Source of the DNA: Pachysolen tannophilus NRRL Y-2460
Taxonomy: Eukaryota
NCBI GenBank assembly: GCA_001661245.1
Contig: KV454017.1
Span: forward strand, 837,903-901,902
Length of the DNA stretch: 64,000 nucleotides
Direction of reading: 5' to 3'
The notes beneath the pieces were generated by a model that ran no database searches, was not told the DNA's origin, and saw nothing but the letters and a program-made list of their open reading frames with translations. The position numbers and the translations under genes were made by a program. Shown one piece after another: positions 27,893 to 43,712 of this stretch. The first letter of the stretch is position 1. Each line of letters begins with the position of its first letter.

Positions 27893-28312
27893 ATGGTAAG
27901 TTGATTTATTTTTTTGATTTGTGGTTATGGTATTTATTACTAACATGTTGTATAATAACAAAAAATTTTTTTTTTTTCGATTTAGGGTAAAAGAAAGAAG
28001 AGTACTAGAAAGCCAGTTAAAAAGGTGAAGGAAGTTTTAGAAACTCAATTTAGTTGTTTATTTTGTAATCATGAGAAATCTGTTGTTTGTACTTTGGATA
28101 AGAAGAATAGTGTTGGTTCATTACATTGTAAGATTTGTGGTCAAAATTTCCAAACTCCAATAAATACTTTATCACAACCTGTGGATATTTATAGTGATTG
28201 GGTTGATGCTTGTGAAGCAGTTGCAGAGGAAATTGAAAGAGAAGGAGCAAATGCTGATGATTTTGAAGTGAAGGACGGTTATGATGATGAGGATGAAGAT
28301 GAAGATTACTGA
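27893..28312 (+). CDS. ELF1: Transcription elongation factor Elf1; exon 1 is the ATG only (27893-27895), exon 2 is 27986-28312; 109 aa
   Basis: Spliced product [34 protein letters not shown]...CKICGQNF...[14 protein letters not shown], a C4 zinc ribbon. Confidence 0.95.
27896..27985 (+). other. Spliceosomal intron of ELF1 (90 nt)
   Basis: ATG|GTAAGT donor, TACTAAC at 27938-27944, acceptor TTTAG at 27981-27985. Splicing restores the conserved MGKRKK start. Confidence 0.93.
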
Positions 28313-31937: not shown

Positions 31938-33023
31938 TTAATAAAATCCATATTTTTTCATTCTATTTTCTCTTTTTCTTTTACTTTGTTCAGAAATCCA
32001 CCATCCATAATAAATACCCAGTACCGAACCACCTAAATGAGCGGCATAGTCAAAAGATCCCCATCTAAAGAGACAACCACATAAATTCCAACCCATTGAT
32101 GCTAAGAAAGCTATCCAAGCTCCACCTGGTATAGGTAAAAAAAATAATAAAATTTGTGATTTTGGGAATAAATAAGCAAAACAACCAAATAAACCAAATA
32201 ATGCACCTGAAGCACCTAAACTTGCAAATTTAGGAATTCTTGCTAATATTGGGAACAGTAATGAAGCTAATGAACTTAATACTGCACAATTAAGGTACAT
32301 TGTTGTAAAATTTGAGCTACCTACAACAGATACTAAAGAACCTAAAGAATATAAACACATCATATTCATTGCAATATGCCAAAATTCTTGATGAGAAAAA
32401 GCACTTCCAATCATTGAACTCATAGAATACATTGAATTTTTTTCTAATAAGAAATAACGATTTGTAAATTTCCAAAATGCAGGTAATCTCCACAGACCAA
32501 ATACAGCCAAATTAATTGCAATAATTGTATATATTAATTGATTTGGATGTCTATTAAAATATTTCATTGGTGTATATTGGAAAATATATGGCATTGAATA
32601 AGTTGTAATCACACAAAAAATTAAGGTAAAAATTGAAGCTTTACGTAAAAGTAATCTATCATAATTTCCACCACCACTACTACTACCACTACCACTACCA
32701 TAATATGAATTTGAAAAACGATTATTATTAATGTTTCCAAACCATTTTAAATTTTTTAAATTTATGAAAAAAGTATTATTATTATTATATTTCTTAATTA
32801 AATTTAAATTAAAAAATGAAATTTTTAAAGGTAAAAATTGAGATTTTAATAATAAATTTGATGAAATATTTGTAAAACGAATACCATTATTTAATATAAA
32901 AGGTCCAATACCAAAATTTTTAACAATTGAATTTTGAAATATCAATTTTTTAGGATTTATAACTTTGGCGTTAACGTTTCCTAAAAAGAAATTTTTATTC
33001 AAGATTATCTTACTCATGATCAT
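31938..33023 (-). CDS. PCP1: Mitochondrial rhomboid protease (start uncertain: ATG 33023 or 33017)
   Basis: SAFSHQEFWHIAMNM, catalytic SLGASGA and DYAAHLGG, with a basic presequence. Confidence 0.9.
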   Translation of the reverse strand: MIMSKIILNKNFFLGNVNAKVINPKKLIFQNSIVKNFGIGPFILNNGIRFTNISSNLLLKSQFLPLKISFFNLNLIKKYNNNNTFFINLKNLKWFGNINNNRFSNSYYGSGSGSSSGGGNYDRLLLRKASIFTLIFCVITTYSMPYIFQYTPMKYFNRHPNQLIYTIIAINLAVFGLWRLPAFWKFTNRYFLLEKNSMYSMSSMIGSAFSHQEFWHIAMNMMCLYSLGSLVSVVGSSNFTTMYLNCAVLSSLASLLFPILARIPKFASLGASGALFGLFGCFAYLFPKSQILLFFLPIPGGAWIAFLASMGWNLCGCLFRWGSFDYAAHLGGSVLGIYYGWWISEQSKRKRENRMKKYGFY

Positions 33024-33214
33024 CAATATACATGTGAATGATGATTTTTTAAAAAATCGAATCAATTGGTGTATATATTTAAGTTCATATATGAAAGAAA
33101 AGCAAAACCCATTAGTTTTATAATAGACAAAAAAAAGAGCTAATCATATTTGAGTGTACACGACGTTTTTTTGGTTTTTGGTTTAAAAAAAAATAAAAAA
33201 AAAATTAAATAAAG

Positions 33215-33286
33215 CTCCGCGACGGGGAATTGAACCCCGGTCTACCACGCGACAAGCGGTAATTCTAGCCACTAAACTATCACGGA
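33215..33286 (-). tRNA. tRNA-Asp (anticodon GTC), 72 nt, no intron
   Basis: TCCGTGATAGTTTAGTGGCTAGAATTACCGCTTGTCGCGTGGTAGACCGGGGTTCAATTCCCCGTCGCGGAG folds as a cloverleaf with A and B boxes. Oligo-T lies downstream. Confidence 0.97.
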
Positions 33287-33862
33287 TTGCTTCAGAGACA
33301 CCGCAACTCAAACCTTGTTTGACCTACAGAAATTGTTTAAAGAAAAAAAAAATGTAAACAACAACAATTTAAAATTTTTTTTTAACTAACATCTCTCATA
33401 CAAAAGTCTTACATTACATAAAAAAACAGTAAATAAAAAAAAAATTTTTTTGTAAGAGATGGAAGCACTTTTTCTAACATTTAATATTACAAAATGATAC
33501 TTGTAAATCCTGTTTTCTCTCTTTACAAATTTGAATCATTGATTAAATTTTTCAAATTTCAAATTTTAAATCATAAATTCTGGATCAAAAAACCTCTCTT
33601 CAGAATATAACAAGAAACATATCATCTACACATACAATATTTCTATTTTGTCTTTTGTTTCTTTCTCTCGTCGTGTCAATAAACAAACATTTGATTGAGA
33701 ATTTGAACCATATCAAAACATAATATTATTTAACAAGTATAAACATAAACATAAACATAAACATAAACACAAATTACAAAAAAAAAAAGAATATTTAAAA
33801 AGGTAAACAACTGTTCATAAAGATTGTTTAATAGATTCAAGGGAATTTCAATCTTTATAAAG

Positions 33863-36684
33863 ATGGAGAATAAAGAATATCTTCAACCTGGTAAGTTCAA
33901 TTGAATAAAAATTATGGTAGCTTGGATTTTAATTGTACTAACCGAGTTTATTAGATTTTGATGCAAAGACATTAAAAGTTGCTCAGTTAAGAAATATATT
34001 ACTTGAATATGATGTTGAATATCCATCTTCAGCCAAAAAACTGGAATTGGTTAAAATATTCAATAATAGTATTAAACCCAAAGCATCACAATTGTTGAAA
34101 AATTATCAAGATATTATTAGTAATTCAAATGGTATTATCAGCGGTAAAATTGAAAATGATGAACAAAAACCGTTACAGAGTGGTACTGAAGAAGATGATG
34201 AGGTTTGGGATATTATTGATGACCAAAAACTGGAACCAAAAGTATTGGAACCAAGGAAAAATTTTACAACTCAAGAAAATGATAAAGTGTCATCACTGAT
34301 TGAAAAGACTTCTTCTATTAAAGATTCAAAAATTATTCAAAATGATGAATCGCTGCAACCAGTCTTGGTAAAGAAAACACATAAAAAGATAATTCCTAAA
34401 AAACGTTCTAATGAAAATGACAATGAAGAAAATTTTAGTCCTAGAAAAATTTCCAAGAAATCAGAAGAATCTCCAAAACTGGTGAAAGTTCCAACTTCTA
34501 GTGTTCCACATAAAAAAGAATCTTCTAATAAGGAAAAATCAGTTATCACTGCTACTGCTGCTGCAGAACAACAGAATCATACAAAGTCTAAGAACCATGT
34601 AATTGAAAAATCCCCTAAAAAAGATGAAAAAATTTTAATTGACAACAATAATGATTTGAAAAATAAGAAATCTTCTACAGCTAGAAAATTGCGTTCTGAT
34701 GATTCAAAAATTAAAAAATCTTCAAAAGGTGAAAAATCAAATAAATTACAAAAATCTGTCAAGTCTGAATTCATTAAACAACAAAAGAAAGAGGAGAAAC
34801 AAAAGAATGAAAAGAAAAATGCACTTCTTCATAATCTGGAATCTTCAAAACCTTCAGTATGGAACTCTTTTTTCTCTCCTGCTAAATCTCCTGCTAAATC
34901 TCCAGATGTATCTAATAGTGAATTTTTCACTCCAAATGGTTCTAATATTGGTACACCAAAAAAGAATACAGAAACTAATGGTAGAAGTGTTATGCCTAAT
35001 TTTTCCAGCTTAACACCATCATTTGCAAAGACTTTGGGTGTTAAAATTGTCAATTCGACTCCATTTTCTTCTTCTAACAAATCACGTAGAGGCCCGGAAA
35101 AGGAAATTAATACTGATACTGTTGAAACAAAAAATGACAATGACCAAAAAGAAAGCAAACTTCATTATCCAAATATAGAAGATGAAGAAGAAATCTTGGA
35201 AAAATTACAAGAAGAAACATCAATTCGTAACAAAGAAGCTCAGATTGATGCCAAAGAAGCTTTAAGTAGCTTGGAAGATTATAAAGACCAGTTAGAAAAT
35301 ATTAATGAAAATGGAAGTAACAAAATTCTTCATGTATTGAAAACTTTATTTTTATGTTTTTCATCTACAATTTTACTCACAATAGTAATTATGCTTACTA
35401 TTTCTTCTGTATCTTGGTACGCTGATCAGAGGAAAAATGTAGGATATTGTGGTAATGAAGTTCTTGTGAACTCTATGAAGTACTCTAAATTATCAGAATA
35501 TGAAGAACTTCTGCCATACGTTCAGTCATATGAAAAATTTTTGATTAAACATTTTAGACCAAACTGCAGACCATGTCCTGAACATGGTAAATGTTATCCA
35601 TATTTATCATTATATTGTGACGAAGATTATGTAATGGTTACACCATGGTACACTTTTGGAGGCTTGTATTTTGGAGGCTCTCAATGTGTTAAAGATTCTC
35701 AGAAAGAAGAAGCTGTTGACGAAATGATTTCATACGCTTTAGATATTTTGAGAGCAAAAAATGCAGAGAACTGTGGTAAAGATTATATAGGTTTCACAAC
35801 AGAAGAGATGTATGAAATATTGAAAGAAACTCGACAACCATGGTTAAGTGTTGAAGAATTTGATGAATTATGGGAAAAGGTTGTTGAAGATTTAGCTAGT
35901 GAGCCAGAAATTACTGTAAGGCAGGTTTTTTTTCCAACAAACAAAATAGAAAAGTGAAAATCATCTAAATCGAATAAAGATACAATTTTATTTATTATTC
36001 ACTTTTTTAATGTGATTGAATTGTGATATTTTTTTGATTTAGATTTTTTTTCCTTTTCATTGTTTTAACTGAAGAAGCATAATATTTACTAACATCAAAA
36101 AAAAATTTTTTTATTTATAGTTTCAACTCGATAATAACGCTCAGCAAAGAAAAATATCAAAATCAAGTTTTGAGCAGCATGCTGAGCCGGCAACTGAAAA
36201 CTTCCAAAACCAAATTATTCGGTCGTCATCAAAGTCGAAGTACAGTTTCAGATGTAAGTTACAGGAACATGTCTATAACAGATTGGCCTATCTTAAGTAC
36301 CCATTTTATGGAATAATGATTCTTGTATTATTTTATTGTTTTGCCAAATATCAGTATAATCAATATATGCAAGAAAAAATCAAAGTTAATTCTTTGTACA
36401 AATTAATAATAAAGAGGTTGAGAAAGCAAATTCAAATATATAAGAATGATACCACTGGGAAAGAAAGAGAATTTATGGTAATGATTCAAATAAGAGATAT
36501 GTTACTCGAAAATGATAGTCAGAAGACGAGGGACAGAATATGGACAAAAATTAGGAACAAAGTTGATCTAAACTCTAATATTGAACAGAGAATCAATGAA
36601 GTGGACGGAGAGCTTGTGAGAACATGGAGATGGATAGGTATAAATAATGACGATGACGAATTAATACAAGAAGCTAAATATTGA
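33863..36684 (+). CDS. SRC1: LEM/HEH inner nuclear membrane protein Src1/Heh1; exons 33863-33890, 33955-35924 (or 35915) and 36121-36684
   Basis: Spliced N-terminus MENKEYLQPDFDAKTLKVAQLRNILLEYDVEYPSSAKKxELVKIF (HEH domain). Then a TM helix, VGYCG, CRPCPEHGKC, EPEITVRQ, a second TM, and the MAN1/MSC C-terminus ending EVDGELVRTWRW. Confidence 0.9.
33891..33954 (+). other. SRC1 intron 1 (64 nt, phase 1)
   Basis: GTAAGT at 33891, TACTAAC at 33936-33942, TAG at 33952-33954. The frame is restored. Confidence 0.92.
35916..36120 (+). other. SRC1 intron 2, with candidate donors at 35916 (GTAAGG), 35921 (GCAGGT) and 35925 (GTTTTT)
   Basis: TACTAAC at 36087-36093 and TAG at 36118-36120. Phase-0 joining links the 636-aa ORF to the 133-aa ORF through an open frame. 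Confidence 0.8.
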
Positions 36685-37102
36685 TTTGTTCATAATAAAA
36701 ACTTTGTATCTTTTCATTTTGTTTTTCAATTATTTTAATACTTTTTTTGTTAATTAAATGTAACAATTTCCGAATATAAACATACAAATATAAACATACA
36801 AACTGTTCTTTTTAATGTACTGTATATTCAATTCCAAAAAGTTCATTTATCCATCTTCAAGCTGAATTTATTTGTATTTGTTTCGATCAAATACGTTGAA
36901 CTCAATAAATGTTAAGCTGATTAAAAAGATTAAATTTTTAAATTTTATAAATTTTTTAAAAAAAATTTTTTTTGTTTCTCTTTTTCGCTCTCCTAACTAA
37001 TCTTGATAAATTTAATAATTTTTGATTTTAACATTATAAAGCTGTTGAAACTAATTAATTACATTTATTACCATCAAGATACTTGTATCTAGTAAATTGG
37101 AA

Positions 37103-38164
37103 ATGGCATCAATATCGTCTTCGTCTTCTTCTTCTTCTTCTTCTATATGGAGAGTGCCTGAACCGATCAAGCTGGTTTTTGACACTTTCCCATTGAAGAC
37201 ATATTCGCTGAATAAGAAATCAGATTTGACTTTATTTCCCCAAAATACAACAAACAAGTTTGAATTGATTAAAAAAGATCAAGATCAAAGTCAATTTTCT
37301 AGTCAAGGAAATTTCCAACTTGGTGTTTATAATGTTTCAAAATATGTTAAGGATCCAAATGTGTTGATACCAACAGATCCGATTTGTTTATCCACGCTAC
37401 TTATAATAAATTTAAGAAATGGGTTATTATTGCCCAAAGTGAAGTTTCCCGAGGGTGACAATGGGAACATCAAGAATAACAACTTTATAACAATATTATC
37501 GTACCATGCATCTTATGATGGTGAATTGCCACTTTTAATTGAAGATAATAGTGGTAAAAATCTTCAAAAATCAATTAAATCCACTAGTTTAATAAACGAT
37601 TTAAATTTGACAAGGTGTACAGATAATAAAGAATTTTTCAAATGTCAAGTTGTTGATTCTATATTATATGATTGTTGGGTAATAACTGTATTGTATGAAT
37701 TATCTGATTTACAAAAATTAAAGATTTATACAGATTTATTAAATGATAAAGAAAATTCTATGGTATTAGATACTTTAACTTTAAACGATTTACTCGCTTC
37801 CACTTTAATAACAAGATTTTCCTTTAACATTAGAAACGAGAATCTTGCATCTTATTGGTCAAACAATAATTTGATTAAAAATCTTGTATATCGAAGATCA
37901 CTTTTACTGAAAATTGAAATGGAAAAAAATTCAATTTTTCGCAAGACTTTAGAAATTTTGGAAATTTTTGAACAAGAATTAGCTAAATCAAATTTTTTCT
38001 TAGAAGAAAATAATAAAGAATTACCAAGTATATTAGATTGTAAAATTGCTGGTTTAGTCTATTGTATTTTACAATGGTGTGAAGGAAGCAAACTTTATGC
38101 AATGATTAACACTTTACCCAATCTCAAATCCCATTGTTATAGATGTATAGATAAATGTATATAA
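37103..38164 (+). CDS. SAM35: SAM complex subunit Sam35 (metaxin-like; first ATG 37103)
   Basis: WRVPEPIKLVFDTFPLKTY, LGVYNV, PTDPICL and ASYDGELPLLIED. Adjacent to STE12 as in S. cerevisiae. Confidence 0.82.
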   Translation: MASISSSSSSSSSSIWRVPEPIKLVFDTFPLKTYSLNKKSDLTLFPQNTTNKFELIKKDQDQSQFSSQGNFQLGVYNVSKYVKDPNVLIPTDPICLSTLLIINLRNGLLLPKVKFPEGDNGNIKNNNFITILSYHASYDGELPLLIEDNSGKNLQKSIKSTSLINDLNLTRCTDNKEFFKCQVVDSILYDCWVITVLYELSDLQKLKIYTDLLNDKENSMVLDTLTLNDLLASTLITRFSFNIRNENLASYWSNNNLIKNLVYRRSLLLKIEMEKNSIFRKTLEILEIFEQELAKSNFFLEENNKELPSILDCKIAGLVYCILQWCEGSKLYAMINTLPNLKSHCYRCIDKCI

Positions 38165-41507: not shown

Positions 41508-42547
41508 CTAAATATCAAATCTACTATATTTCATACATTATAATTTATAATACCTAATAATTTTTATTTTTTTTTATTTTTTATTTTGTTTCCTCCCCCA
41601 TTTCATATCATATCATTTCTATTCTATTCTATTCTATTCTAGGCATATGTTTTTTTTTTTTATTACTCTTATCTTTTCCATGTTTCTTTTAAATACTTTG
41701 GACGGTGTTACCTATTTTTCTTCTACTATAAAGCAGCAGTTTAATAATGATGTACGATTTTCAGAAAAAAACCACACACAATACATAAAAACACATAAAG
41801 TCGTGGATAGACTCAATTTTGTTTTTTTTGGGAGATACGGCCCTAACGGGTAGTGTTTATGTAATAGATTTTAGAATTTCATGGAACCTAAAGGAACTTA
41901 AAAGAATTTAAAGAATTAAAAGAAAAAAATGAATTTGTTAATTGATAATTTTGACAGAATCCAATATCTATGGTGTTAATGACACGTAACTAAGCTAAGA
42001 TGTTATGAGCGCGCACACAAGCGCGCGCCCTTAAACGATATCCCAACAGCGTTTATTAATCTTTGTTTTAACCGCTGTTAAAACTTCTCTCTTTTGATGT
42101 ACAAAAAAGTATACTAGTTATATTCTATATACTTTATTTGAATTAACAATAATTATTATATTAAATAACAAATTAAAAAATAGAAATAGAAATAGAAATA
42201 ACAGAAAAAGAATTAGGATTAATTAAAAAAAAATAAAAAAAAACTTTAAAAGCAAAAGAGAAAGAGAGAAACAAGGGAAAGAAAGGGAAAGAAGAGAAAG
42301 GAAAAAAAAAAAAAAAGGAAAAAGCAAAATTGAATTTAATTTATTATTAACCGCTGAAGGCAAGAAGGTTAGGTGGAGATCAGTTATTAATATTAAATAA
42401 ATTAAATTAAATTAAATTCAAATTTTTTAAAAATATTCTTTCTTATTTCATCTCTTTTCTTATCACAATAAGAAGAAGAAGAAGAGGAAGAAGAATAGAA
42501 AAAAGGAAGGTTCAGAGTTTGATCAAATCATAATTCAAGTCATTTTT

Positions 42548-42600
<53 letters not shown>

Positions 42601-43200
42601 NNNNNNNNNNNNNNNNNNNNNNNNNNNNNNNNNNNNNNNNNNNNNNNNNNNNNNNNNNNNNNNNNNNNNNNNNNNNNNNNNNNNNNNNNNNNNNNNNNNN
42701 NNNNNNNNNNNNNNNNNNNNNNNNNNNNNNNNNNNNNNNNNNNNNNNNNNNNNNNNNNNNNNNNNNNNNNNNNNNNNNNNNNNNNNNNNNNNNNNNNNNN
42801 NNNNNNNNNNNNNNNNNNNNNNNNNNNNNNNNNNNNNNNNNNNNNNNNNNNNNNNNNNNNNNNNNNNNNNNNNNNNNNNNNNNNNNNNNNNNNNNNNNNN
42901 NNNNNNNNNNNNNNNNNNNNNNNNNNNNNNNNNNNNNNNNNNNNNNNNNNNNNNNNNNNNNNNNNNNNNNNNNNNNNNNNNNNNNNNNNNNNNNNNNNNN
43001 NNNNNNNNNNNNNNNNNNNNNNNNNNNNNNNNNNNNNNNNNNNNNNNNNNNNNNNNNNNNNNNNNNNNNNNNNNNNNNNNNNNNNNNNNNNNNNNNNNNN
43101 NNNNNNNNNNNNNNNNNNNNNNNNNNNNNNNNNNNNNNNNNNNNNNNNNNNNNNNNNNNNNNNNNNNNNNNNNNNNNNNNNNNNNNNNNNNNNNNNNNNN
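42601..43200. other. Assembly gap (600 N), preceded by a long poly-T run
   Basis: Run of N characters seen directly. Confidence 1.
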
Positions 43201-43712
43201 TTTTGGCGCTGATTCTCTTGTGTTGAGTTTTCATAATTGGTAATTGGTTCTTTTTTTTTTTTTTCTTTTTTGTTTGTTATTATTTTTGTTTTAAGTCATT
43301 ATCGGATTTGACTGAGTTGGTTAACTATCATTTTGCTTTGGGAGTTTCACGTTTGGTTTTAATTTGTTTAAAGGCTCATTCATCCGTATTATCACATATT
43401 ATTATTAGATATATTTGATTTCATTTCAAGTTTTATGAAGGTTTAATTCAAAGTTTTGTGTTTTCAGTTTAGGAGTGGTATATATCATCAGCACATTTGT
43501 TAATTGTTGCATTCATTTTTTTTTTTTTTTTTTATTTTTTTTTCGTTTCAAGCAAAAACTTCGGTTCATATATTTGTTTCATTATCTATCTTTGCAATTC
43601 ATTCTAAATCATAGTTTTTGTGCTCATTTTTGCTAATTTTTTTTTTTTTTGTTGTTGTCTGTTTCTTTTATTTTTATTTTTTTTTTTTTTTTTTTTTTTT
43701 CCTGTTTTTGAA

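What the first reader, a model, noticed from the sequence alone, without database searches (positions are those of the whole stretch)
35916..36316. SRC1 intron 2: overlapping non-canonical 5' splice sites followed by a dual-coding exon segment
Seen: exon 2 ends ACT GTA AGG CAG GTTTTT. Donors at 35916 or 35925 join 36121 in frame, giving the long form with TM2 and the MSC domain. A GC donor (AG|GCAGGT at 35921, 4 nt upstream of 35925) shifts into a second frame that stays open for 64 further codons to TAA at 36314-36316 (SFNSIITLSKEKYQNQVLSSM...DWPILSTHFME). The third frame stops within 4 codons. This segment is unusually rich in CGG/CCG/TCG codons. Known: S. cerevisiae SRC1 uses overlapping GCAAGU/GUGAGU donors 4 nt apart to make Src1-S and Src1-L, in a Hub1-dependent way. 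Inference: the two-isoform switch may be conserved in this distant yeast with different donor sequences, possibly with a third donor and an intron-retained form ending VRQVFFPTNKIEK.
Basis: partly seen in the sequence, partly recalled or inferred. Interest (0 to 1): 0.78.

Follow-up and report, generated by a model that had tools for sequence, protein, structure and literature searches.

The report
Yeast SRC1 two-isoform splice switch
The nuclear-envelope gene SRC1/HEH1 of the yeast Pachysolen tannophilus carries the same pair of competing splice donors and the same two-frame exon that let other budding yeasts make a long and a short protein from this gene, so it is a further example of a published mechanism, and its RNA has not yet been checked.

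Summary
At 35913-35930 the sequence is ACT GTA AGG CAG GTTTTT. Donors at 35916 and 35925 join 36121 in frame. A GC donor at 35921 shifts into a frame that stays open for 64 codons, to TAA at 36314-36316, right at the start of TM2.

The gene is PACTADRAFT_35670 of Pachysolen tannophilus, annotated as the 850-aa long form that uses donor 35916.

The real donor pair is probably GUAAGG (35916, long form) and GCAGGU five bases downstream (short form). This "+5" layout is published for Y. lipolytica, C. jadinii and C. auris (Hurtig 2020, PMC7491326). A yeast contig from a metagenome (L001) has GUAAG|GCAAGU at the same position in the domain, with an open second frame.

The support is indirect:
- No RNA run was available.
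- The open frame alone has an empirical chance of about 5%.
- The short-form tail has no detectable relatives.
- The GC donor differs from the reported invariant GCAAGU at its fourth base.

Verdict: a new member of a known kind, of low interest. I put the chance that the short form is actually made at about 0.65.

The parts
33863..33890 (+). SRC1/HEH1 exon 1 (ATG plus 9 codons and 1 base)
   Evidence: Read from the sequence. The joined translation equals the annotated protein P0002, apart from CTG read as Ala.
33891..33954 (+). Intron 1: GTAAGT donor, TACTAAC branch point at 33936-33942, AG acceptor
   Evidence: Required to reproduce the N-terminus of P0002.
33955..35915 (+). Exon 2: HeH domain, disordered basic region, TM1 (protein residues 467-495), and the lumenal first half of the MSC domain
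   Evidence: Pfam HeH E=1.3e-15. MSC profile positions 1-174, E=9.9e-44. Hydropathy peak of 2.5 at residue 474.
35916..35921 (+). Full-length (long-form) donor GUAAGG. Its sixth base, G, is the first base of the GC donor.
   Evidence: The annotated 850-aa model uses it. Four other candidate introns in the window all begin GTAAGT. L001 has the same GUAAGG.
35921..35926 (+). Candidate truncating (short-form) donor GCAGGU, 5 nt downstream of the long-form donor. The exon would then end at 35920.
   Evidence: Frame arithmetic. L001 has GCAAGU at the same offset, and intron positions +1 to +14 match at 13 of 14. The +5 GcAaGU layout is published. Use of the site is not shown.
35925..35930 (+). It occupies the position of the Saccharomycetaceae long-form donor GUGAGU but is not a plausible donor here. 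It begins a run of 8 U.
   Evidence: Sequence. Positional homology is inferred from the read-through peptides xRQVS and the published /GCAA/GUGAGU.
35916..36120 (+). Intron 2 (205 nt as the long-form intron), with in-frame TGA at 35955-35957, branch point TACTAAC at 36087-36093, and a run of A at 36097-36105
   Evidence: All four DNA runs carry the intron. One sample has an extra A behind 36096.
36121..36316 (+). Dual-frame part of exon 3. The long frame starts at 36121. The short frame starts at 36122 and has 64 codons plus TAA at 36314-36316.
   Evidence: protein P0041. Long-frame codon usage is atypical. No Pfam family was found for the short frame.
36317..36684 (+). Rest of exon 3, coding in the long frame only: TM2 (protein residues about 724-738) and the second half of the MSC domain, with stop at 36682-36684
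   Evidence: MSC profile positions 174-336, E=4.6e-36. Hydropathy. The +1 frame has 14 stops here.

Best explanation
This is the SRC1/HEH1 orthologue of Pachysolen tannophilus. It encodes an inner-nuclear-membrane protein with an HeH domain and an MSC domain.

Its second intron carries two competing 5' splice sites in the '+5' layout, ACU|GUAAG|GCAGGU.
- The consensus-like GUAAGG at 35916 is the main donor. It gives the 850-aa long form, with TM2 and the C-terminal part of the MSC domain. In S. cerevisiae that domain recruits Chm7/ESCRT.
- The weak GC donor at 35921 leaves 5 more bases in the mRNA, so exon 3 is read one base out of register. This gives a 729-aa short form. It shares the first 663 residues with the long form, then has a 66-residue basic, Ser/Thr-rich tail that ends where TM2 would begin.

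What is shown here: the gene's identity, the exon structure of the long form, the frame arithmetic, and the presence of the same donor layout in one relative's DNA.

What is inferred: that the GC donor is used, that the short protein accumulates, that it acts like S. cerevisiae Heh1-S as a modulator of the long form, and any dependence on Hub1.
For: 1. Identity. HeH and MSC domains are split by the intron at MSC profile position 174. The gene matches PACTADRAFT_35670 (850 aa) at 100%, which is the product of donor 35916.
2. Published precedent. By RNA-seq, alternative 5' sites of SRC1 that put the downstream exon in two frames are conserved across Saccharomycotina. The truncating site lies at +5 in Y. 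lipolytica, C. jadinii and C. auris, and at -4 in Saccharomycetaceae and C. albicans (PMC7491326, section 11 read in full).
3. Metagenome yeast contig L001 (GC 37%, 34% identity in the MSC half).
   - It has ATT|GTAAG|GCAAGT at the same MSC profile position 174.
   - Intron bases +1 to +14 match at 13 of 14. Bases +15 to +74 match at 17 of 60 without gaps.
   - Matching at least 7 of 8 at +7 to +14 has a chance of about 0.0013, computed post hoc.
   - Its second frame is open for 37 codons.
4. The long-form donor deviates from the local consensus only at +6. It reads GUAAGG, while four other candidate introns read GTAAGT. That G is the first base of the GC donor.
5. Read-through peptides. In 35 of 35 relatives whose junction is visible, EPE(I/V)x is followed by xRQ, and in 30 of 35 by RQV. 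This is what the nucleotides AG|GCAR|GU encode, and Pachysolen reads VRQV.
6. The second frame is open for 64 codons (empirical chance 4.7%). It stops at long-form residue 728, where TM2 begins.
7. Long-frame codon usage in the shared segment is atypical: GC3 is in the top 2.6% and the codon score in the lowest 5.2%. This is expected if synonymous sites are constrained by a second frame.
Against: - No RNA evidence was obtained. No RNA run was listed, and the four holder runs are DNA contigs that carry the intron.
- The GC donor is GCAGGU. Hurtig et al. report the truncating site as 'always GcAaGU'. In S. cerevisiae almost any change in the 16-nt donor segment abolished alternative splicing (PMC12830679, section 7).
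- The tail shows no sequence conservation.
  - A search of 1.84 billion representatives found no related protein. The single hit, P0001 (E=6e-4), is an unrelated tandem-repeat protein.
  - The word-based search found none.
  - The Pachysolen and L001 tails do not align (E=12). The long frame over the same bases does align (E=0.002).
  - This contrasts with published statements that the tail is conserved.
- The short frame's codon usage looks like any off-frame stretch: score -1.356 against a mean of -1.36 for open +1 windows.
- Openness alone is only p of about 0.05, and in L001 a run of at least 36 open codons has p of about 0.19.
Confidence: 0.65

Rival explanations
1. Constitutive splicing only. 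GUAAGG at 35916 is the sole donor and only the long form is made. GCAGGU is a decayed relic of the ancestral GC donor, and the second frame is open by chance or by recent loss.
For: The only public gene model is the long form. The GC donor carries a base (G at +4) not reported in any species of the 2020 survey. The open frame has about a 5% chance. The tail has no detectable relatives and has off-frame codon usage.
Against: The +5 motif is kept at 13 of 14 bases against a relative with only 34% protein identity. The stop falls exactly at TM2. The published survey reported loss of SRC1 alternative splicing only where duplicate genes replaced it: O. polymorpha, named in the text, and a second case given only in the section heading. 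The word-based search found no second Pachysolen homologue, but it returned only 2 hits among 344 candidates, so this is weak evidence.
Confidence: 0.23
2. The truncated protein comes from intron retention, not from the GC donor. Unspliced mRNA would give a 676-aa protein that ends 13 codons into the intron.
For: The frame arithmetic holds. Intron-retained coding forms of SRC1 exist in the Zygosaccharomyces/Torulaspora clade. Many database ORFs are read-through forms.
Against: The retained tail is short and not conserved. L001 stops after 5 codons. In the clade where retention is coding, all intron stops were lost, whereas here a TGA lies at 35955-35957. Retention also would not explain the open second frame in exon 3.
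Confidence: 0.08
3. cerevisiae-like reading. GCAGGU (35921) and GUUUUU (35925), 4 nt apart, are the competing pair, and 35925 is a working third donor that gives the long form plus VRQ.
For: Donor 35925 joins in frame. It sits where Saccharomycetaceae have their long-form donor GUGAGU, which is inferred from the xRQVS read-through peptides and the published motif.
Against: GUUUUU lacks A3 and G5. L001 has GUUUUA at the same position. The annotated protein lacks VRQ. A consensus-like GUAAGG lies 9 nt upstream.
Confidence: 0.03

Closest known systems
[quoted passage not shown] 2020, RNA 26:1464, PMC7491326)
   Same: The long-form donor comes first and a GC donor lies 5 nt downstream. [quoted passage not shown] Both sites depart from the consensus.
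   Different: Pachysolen is not among the species in that paper (0 mentions). Its GC donor is GCAGGU, not GCAAGU. No RNA evidence is available here. Supplemental Fig. 7 of the paper, which aligns both frames, could not be read.
S. cerevisiae SRC1/HEH1 /GCAA/GUGAGU switch (Heh1-L and Heh1-S; Hub1, Snu66, Prp5, U5/U6 decoding; PMC12830679; Capella et al. 2020 preprint, 10.1101/2020.06.25.171694)
   Same: A GC donor makes the short form. The short form reads the next exon in the +1 register, lacks TM2 and the C-terminal MSC part, and has a unique tail of 49 residues in S. cerevisiae against 66 here. The intron is at the same place after EPEIT.
   Different: In S. cerevisiae the GC donor lies 4 nt upstream of the long-form donor GUGAGU. 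Here it lies 5 nt downstream of GUAAGG. The published reason for GC in S. cerevisiae, avoiding a UAA in the long mRNA, does not apply in this layout. Dependence on Hub1 was not tested here.
Ogataea polymorpha: two unspliced genes, one full-length and one truncated (Hurtig 2020)
   Same: It belongs to a related lineage of non-Saccharomycetaceae yeasts (recalled taxonomy). It has the same two protein products.
   Different: Pachysolen keeps a single spliced gene. Whether it also has a truncated paralogue could not be checked, because no genome is held.
Zygosaccharomyces/Torulaspora clade SRC1 with a coding retained intron (Hurtig 2020)
   Same: Relatives such as P0007 and P0009 read xRQVS... through the intron into the long frame.
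   Different: In Pachysolen the intron has an in-frame TGA after 13 codons.

Membership tests
Src1/Heh1/Lem2/MAN1 inner-nuclear-membrane proteins (HeH-MSC) | N-terminal HeH/LEM-like domain | tested here: met
   PF12949, E=1.3e-15, residues 3-37 of exon 2.
Src1/Heh1/Lem2/MAN1 inner-nuclear-membrane proteins (HeH-MSC) | Man1-Src1p C-terminal (MSC) domain | tested here: met
   PF09402 profile positions 1-174 in exon 2 (E=9.9e-44) and 174-336 in exon 3 (E=4.6e-36).
Src1/Heh1/Lem2/MAN1 inner-nuclear-membrane proteins (HeH-MSC) | Two membrane spans flanking a lumenal domain | tested here: met
   Kyte-Doolittle peaks at residue 474 (2.5 over 19 residues) and residue 724 (2.05 over 15 residues; 1.53 over 19). 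The next best peak elsewhere is 0.53 to 0.82. This is hydropathy only. No topology predictor was run.
SRC1-type two-isoform switch by competing 5' splice sites (Hurtig 2020; Mishra laboratory papers) | Intron at the orthologous position inside the MSC domain | tested here: met
   The junction is at MSC profile position 174 in Pachysolen and in L001. EPEIT-type peptides end the exon in 35 relatives.
SRC1-type two-isoform switch by competing 5' splice sites (Hurtig 2020; Mishra laboratory papers) | Two candidate donors offset by +5 or -4, so that the next exon is read in two frames | tested here: met
   GUAAGG at 35916 and GCAGGU at 35921, an offset of +5.
SRC1-type two-isoform switch by competing 5' splice sites (Hurtig 2020; Mishra laboratory papers) | The truncating donor is GcAaGU | tested here: not met
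   Here it is GCAGGU, so 5 of 6 bases agree. L001 has GCAAGU. The paper says 'always GcAaGU' for the species it examined.
SRC1-type two-isoform switch by competing 5' splice sites (Hurtig 2020; Mishra laboratory papers) | The second frame of the downstream exon is open and stops before TM2 | tested here: met
   64 open codons. The stop falls at long-form residue 728, where TM2 begins. The empirical chance of the open run is 4.7%.
SRC1-type two-isoform switch by competing 5' splice sites (Hurtig 2020; Mishra laboratory papers) | The amino-acid sequence of the short-form tail is conserved | tested here: not met
   No relatives were found. The tail does not align with the L001 tail (E=12). Only one relative's DNA was available, and the published alignments could not be read.
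SRC1-type two-isoform switch by competing 5' splice sites (Hurtig 2020; Mishra laboratory papers) | Both junctions present in RNA | not testable with these tools
   No RNA run was listed. The four runs that were laid are DNA contigs without a splice joint.
SRC1-type two-isoform switch by competing 5' splice sites (Hurtig 2020; Mishra laboratory papers) | Use of the GC donor depends on Hub1 bound to Snu66/Prp5 | not testable with these tools
   No genome is held for this window, and no experiment was possible.

The most novel reading that the evidence does not exclude
The truncating GC donor may be the fixed point of this ancient switch, with the full-length donor being the one that moved.

In every relative seen, the bases after EPEIT plus one codon encode RQ(V), which corresponds to AG|GCAR|GU.
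- Species with V at the preceding codon (Pachysolen; L001; Wickerhamomyces pijperi, P0038; P0039) would splice the long form at GUAAGG, 5 nt upstream of the GC donor. P0033 also has V there but continues RQVS, so its layout is unclear.
- Most other species (W, M or Y at that codon, followed in most by VS) would splice it at GUGAGU, 4 nt downstream. This adds three residues (xRQ) to their long form.

Pachysolen would then also be the first natural case in which the GC donor works as GCAGGU. That would mean A at +4 is not obligatory in the +5 layout.
Probability: 0.4. Interest if true: 0.35.

Novelty: new member of a known kind. Interest (0 to 1): 0.25.

Why it matters
SRC1/HEH1 is the textbook case of functional alternative splicing in budding yeast. 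It is also the model for how closely spaced 5' splice sites compete.

A further lineage, which reads CUG as alanine, keeps the ancestral +5 layout with a one-base variant of the GC donor. This offers a natural test of which donor bases matter outside S. cerevisiae. It also suggests that public annotation of this gene, which gives the long form only, is incomplete.

It does not open a new question. The conservation of this switch across Saccharomycotina was published in 2020.

Tried and rejected
- RNA evidence. The look-up of sequencing runs listed no RNA holder. The four runs listed (one study, two samples) are contigs that carry the whole intron, with no splice joint. They only confirm the DNA sequence and show a one-base A indel behind 36096.
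- Whole genome. None is held, so HUB1, SNU66, a truncated paralogue and a genome-wide donor consensus could not be examined.
- Tail homologues. The word search among longer proteins found none. The exhaustive HMMER search found one hit at E=6e-4, an unrelated tandem-repeat protein. The 'near' length class was not searched with the word tool.
- Annotated short isoforms in relatives. None of the 38 homologues of P0003 carries a short-frame tail. The shorter ones are read-through ORFs ending soon after xRQVS.
- Supplemental Fig. 7 of Hurtig 2020 (alignment of both frames) is not held. Fig. S6E of Capella 2020 was not seen, because bioRxiv supplements are closed.
- Earlier scan notes. Nothing relevant was found.
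- Rfam scan of 33000-37500. It found only tRNA-Asp and one sub-threshold snoRNA match. There is no RNA gene in intron 2.
- Fold of 35890-36140. The z-score is -2.1, driven by pairing of the U-run with the A-run. I do not treat this as evidence.
- Literature. A search for 'Pachysolen tannophilus' with 'alternative splicing' held 4 papers, 3 of which were listed. By title and abstract, none is about SRC1.
Full report
**What is there.** The window has 27.8% G+C. The protein search identifies the gene as PACTADRAFT_35670 of Pachysolen tannophilus NRRL Y-2460. It is 850 aa, 100% identical, and deposited with CTG read as alanine.

The gene has three exons:
- Exon 1: 33863-33890.
- Intron 1: 33891-33954, with GTAAGT donor, TACTAAC branch point and AG acceptor.
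- Exon 2: 33955-35915.
- Intron 2: 35916-36120, with GTAAGG donor, TACTAAC at 36087 and AG at 36119-36120.
- Exon 3: 36121-36684.

Pfam finds an HeH domain and an MSC domain. Intron 2 splits the MSC domain at profile position 174. Hydropathy gives TM1 at residues 467-495 and a second peak at about residues 724-738. This is an SRC1/HEH1/Lem2-type inner-nuclear-membrane protein.

**Check of the observation.**
- The exon 2 boundary reads ACT GTA AGG CAG GTTTTT.
- Donors at 35916 and 35925 are in frame with 36121, giving 850 and 853 aa.
- A GC donor at 35921 gives a 729-aa product whose last 64 codons run in the +1 register to TAA at 36314-36316.
- The third register stops at codon indices 3 and 4.
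- Intron retention gives 676 aa.
- The stop of the second frame lies at long-form residue 728, exactly where TM2 starts.
- Under this yeast's code, two tail residues are Ala.

**Is it more than chance?** Taken alone, only weakly.
- In 23 curated ORFs of the window, 4.7% of positions (655 of 14,018) are followed by at least 64 open codons in the +1 frame. 17 of 1,026 stop-to-stop runs are that long.
- The uncurated figure was 8.4%. Nine of 32 ORFs were dropped: six across an N-run and three shadow ORFs.
- The long-frame codons of the shared segment are unusual but not extreme. GC3 is 0.385 against 0.193 (top 2.6% of 12,761 windows), the codon score is in the lowest 5.2%, and CpG is in the top 7.5%.
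- The second frame has ordinary off-frame codon usage.

**What it most likely is.** The literature settles the frame of reference.

In S. cerevisiae, HEH1/SRC1 has /GCAA/GUGAGU. The downstream GU site gives Heh1-L and the regulated upstream GC site gives Heh1-S (PMC12830679, introduction and section 7 read). Heh1-S has 49 unique C-terminal residues that are needed to restrain Chm7 recruitment by Heh1-L (preprint 10.1101/2020.06.25.171694, abstract and section 10 read).

Hurtig et al. 2020 (PMC7491326; SRC1 passages and section 11 read) showed by RNA-seq that this switch is conserved across Saccharomycotina.
- In Y. lipolytica, C. jadinii and C. auris the truncating site lies 5 nt downstream of the full-length site.
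- The GcAaGU motif moves with it.
- Saccharomycetaceae and C. albicans changed to -4.
- O. polymorpha replaced the gene by two unspliced genes.

Pachysolen is not mentioned in that paper.

Read against this, the Pachysolen sequence ACU|GUAAG|GCAGGU is the +5 layout. The consensus-like GUAAGG is the full-length donor, which is the one used by the public model. The GC donor lies 5 nt further on.

**Comparative evidence gathered here.** A scan of metagenome contigs with an alignment of the lumenal MSC half returned 15 loci.

L001 is one of them. It has 37% G+C, lies on a 160-kb contig, and is 34% identical.
- It has ATT|GTAAG|GCAAGTTTTA at the same MSC profile position.
- It has a TACTAAC branch point, and its second frame is open for 37 codons.
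- Intron bases +1 to +14 agree with Pachysolen at 13 of 14. The next 60 bases agree at 17 of 60.
- The chance of at least 7 of 8 matches at +7 to +14 is about 0.0013, computed post hoc.

The other 14 loci have higher G+C (42-64%; all but L009/L010 at least 51%) and look like filamentous fungi. They have a single GTAAGT donor or no intron.

Four other candidate introns in the window all start GTAAGT. The G at +6 of the SRC1 donor is therefore the local exception, and it supplies the first base of the GC donor (the introns were not validated by RNA).

Of 38 homologues of a related ORF, 35 show the junction. All 35 continue xRQ after EPE(I/V)x, and 30 continue RQV. The residue x is W in 26, M in 5, V in 3 and Y in 1. 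RQVS is what AGG CAA GTG AGT encodes, and Pachysolen and L001 read VRQV. I did not see the DNA of these proteins, so this step is inference from the peptides and the published motif.

This suggests that the GC donor sits at one fixed place and phase. It also suggests that the full-length donor is what differs between the two layouts: GUAAGG upstream, or GUGAGU downstream, which adds xRQ to the long protein.

**Evidence against.**
- No RNA data could be obtained. No RNA holder was listed, and the four holder runs are DNA.
- The GC donor has G at +4, where the survey found A in all species. In S. cerevisiae nearly any change in the donor segment collapses the balance, although that result is for the -4 layout.
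- The tail has no detectable relatives.
- The tail does not align with the L001 tail (E=12), while the long frame over the same bases aligns weakly (E=0.002). This sits uneasily with published statements that the tail is conserved. I could not read those alignments.
- The L001 tail is 37 residues and the Pachysolen tail is 66, so tail length is not conserved either.

**Mechanism, with steps marked.**
- Shown: the gene's identity, the long-form exon structure, the frame arithmetic, and the conserved donor layout in one relative's DNA.
- Inferred, at about 0.65: a minority of spliceosomes cleave after 35920 at the GC donor. The mRNA keeps GUAAG, exon 3 is read one base out of register, and the result is a one-span protein. 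That protein would have the HeH domain, TM1, the lumenal domain and a basic Ser/Thr-rich tail (pI 10.1, no hydrophobic stretch). It would lack TM2 and the C-terminal part of the MSC domain.
- Inferred by analogy with S. cerevisiae: the short form would pair with the long form through the lumenal domain and temper ESCRT recruitment. Use of the GC donor may need Hub1. Neither point was tested here.

**Rivals.** Long form only, with a relic motif (0.23). A truncated product by intron retention (0.08).

**Novelty.** The phenomenon, including the +5 layout, is in print. Pachysolen is a new member, with a one-base variant of the GC donor. A search of the paper library for 'Pachysolen tannophilus' with 'alternative splicing' held 4 papers. 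The 3 listed are not about SRC1, judged from titles and abstract starts. Interest is low.

Noticed in passing
window 35926-35933 and 36097-36105: A run of 8 U directly after the GC donor is complementary to a run of 9 A just downstream of the branch point. The minimum-energy fold pairs them (z = -2.1; 5 of 200 shuffles fold as well). One of the two DNA samples has an extra A behind 36096. This could be a donor-to-branch 'zipper', or the U-run could be a binding site that helps a weak donor. It could equally be only low-complexity pairing.
   Followed up: partly
window 36254-36259: A perfect GTAAGT lies inside the dual-frame part of exon 3 (GAT GTA AGT in the short frame). No TACTAAC follows it within the gene, so it is probably not a donor.
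   Followed up: no
window 42431-43295: An N-run (assembly gap) flanked by long poly-T/poly-A tracts creates six spurious ORFs of at least 200 codons. They must be excluded from any ORF statistics.
   Followed up: no
window 33214-33286 (-): A tRNA-Asp (GTC) gene lies about 580 bp upstream of the SRC1 start codon.
   Followed up: no
window 27896-27985 (+), 61673-61407 (-), 3465-3318 (-): Three further candidate introns have GTAAGT donors and TACTAAC branch points. With SRC1 intron 1, they suggest a GUAAGU donor consensus in this yeast. They were not checked against gene models.
   Followed up: partly
L002-L015 (metagenome loci): These are SRC1/MAN1-type genes on contigs with higher G+C (42-64%). 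Twelve have a single GTAAGT donor near the equivalent point of the MSC domain, and two have no intron there (L008, L015). The alternative 3' sites reported for A. fumigatus were not looked for.
   Followed up: no
P0038 (Wickerhamomyces pijperi, 1010 aa) and P0039 (773 aa): Both read EPEIT-VRQV... straight through what should be the intron. P0038 continues in frame into the long-form sequence, so either its intron lacks stops or the annotation missed the intron.
   Followed up: no
L001 1573-1640: The L001 ORF has no ATG before its HeH domain and starts inside ...LLTFLGFDPSTLKV. This suggests the same short first exon and first intron as in Pachysolen.
   Followed up: no
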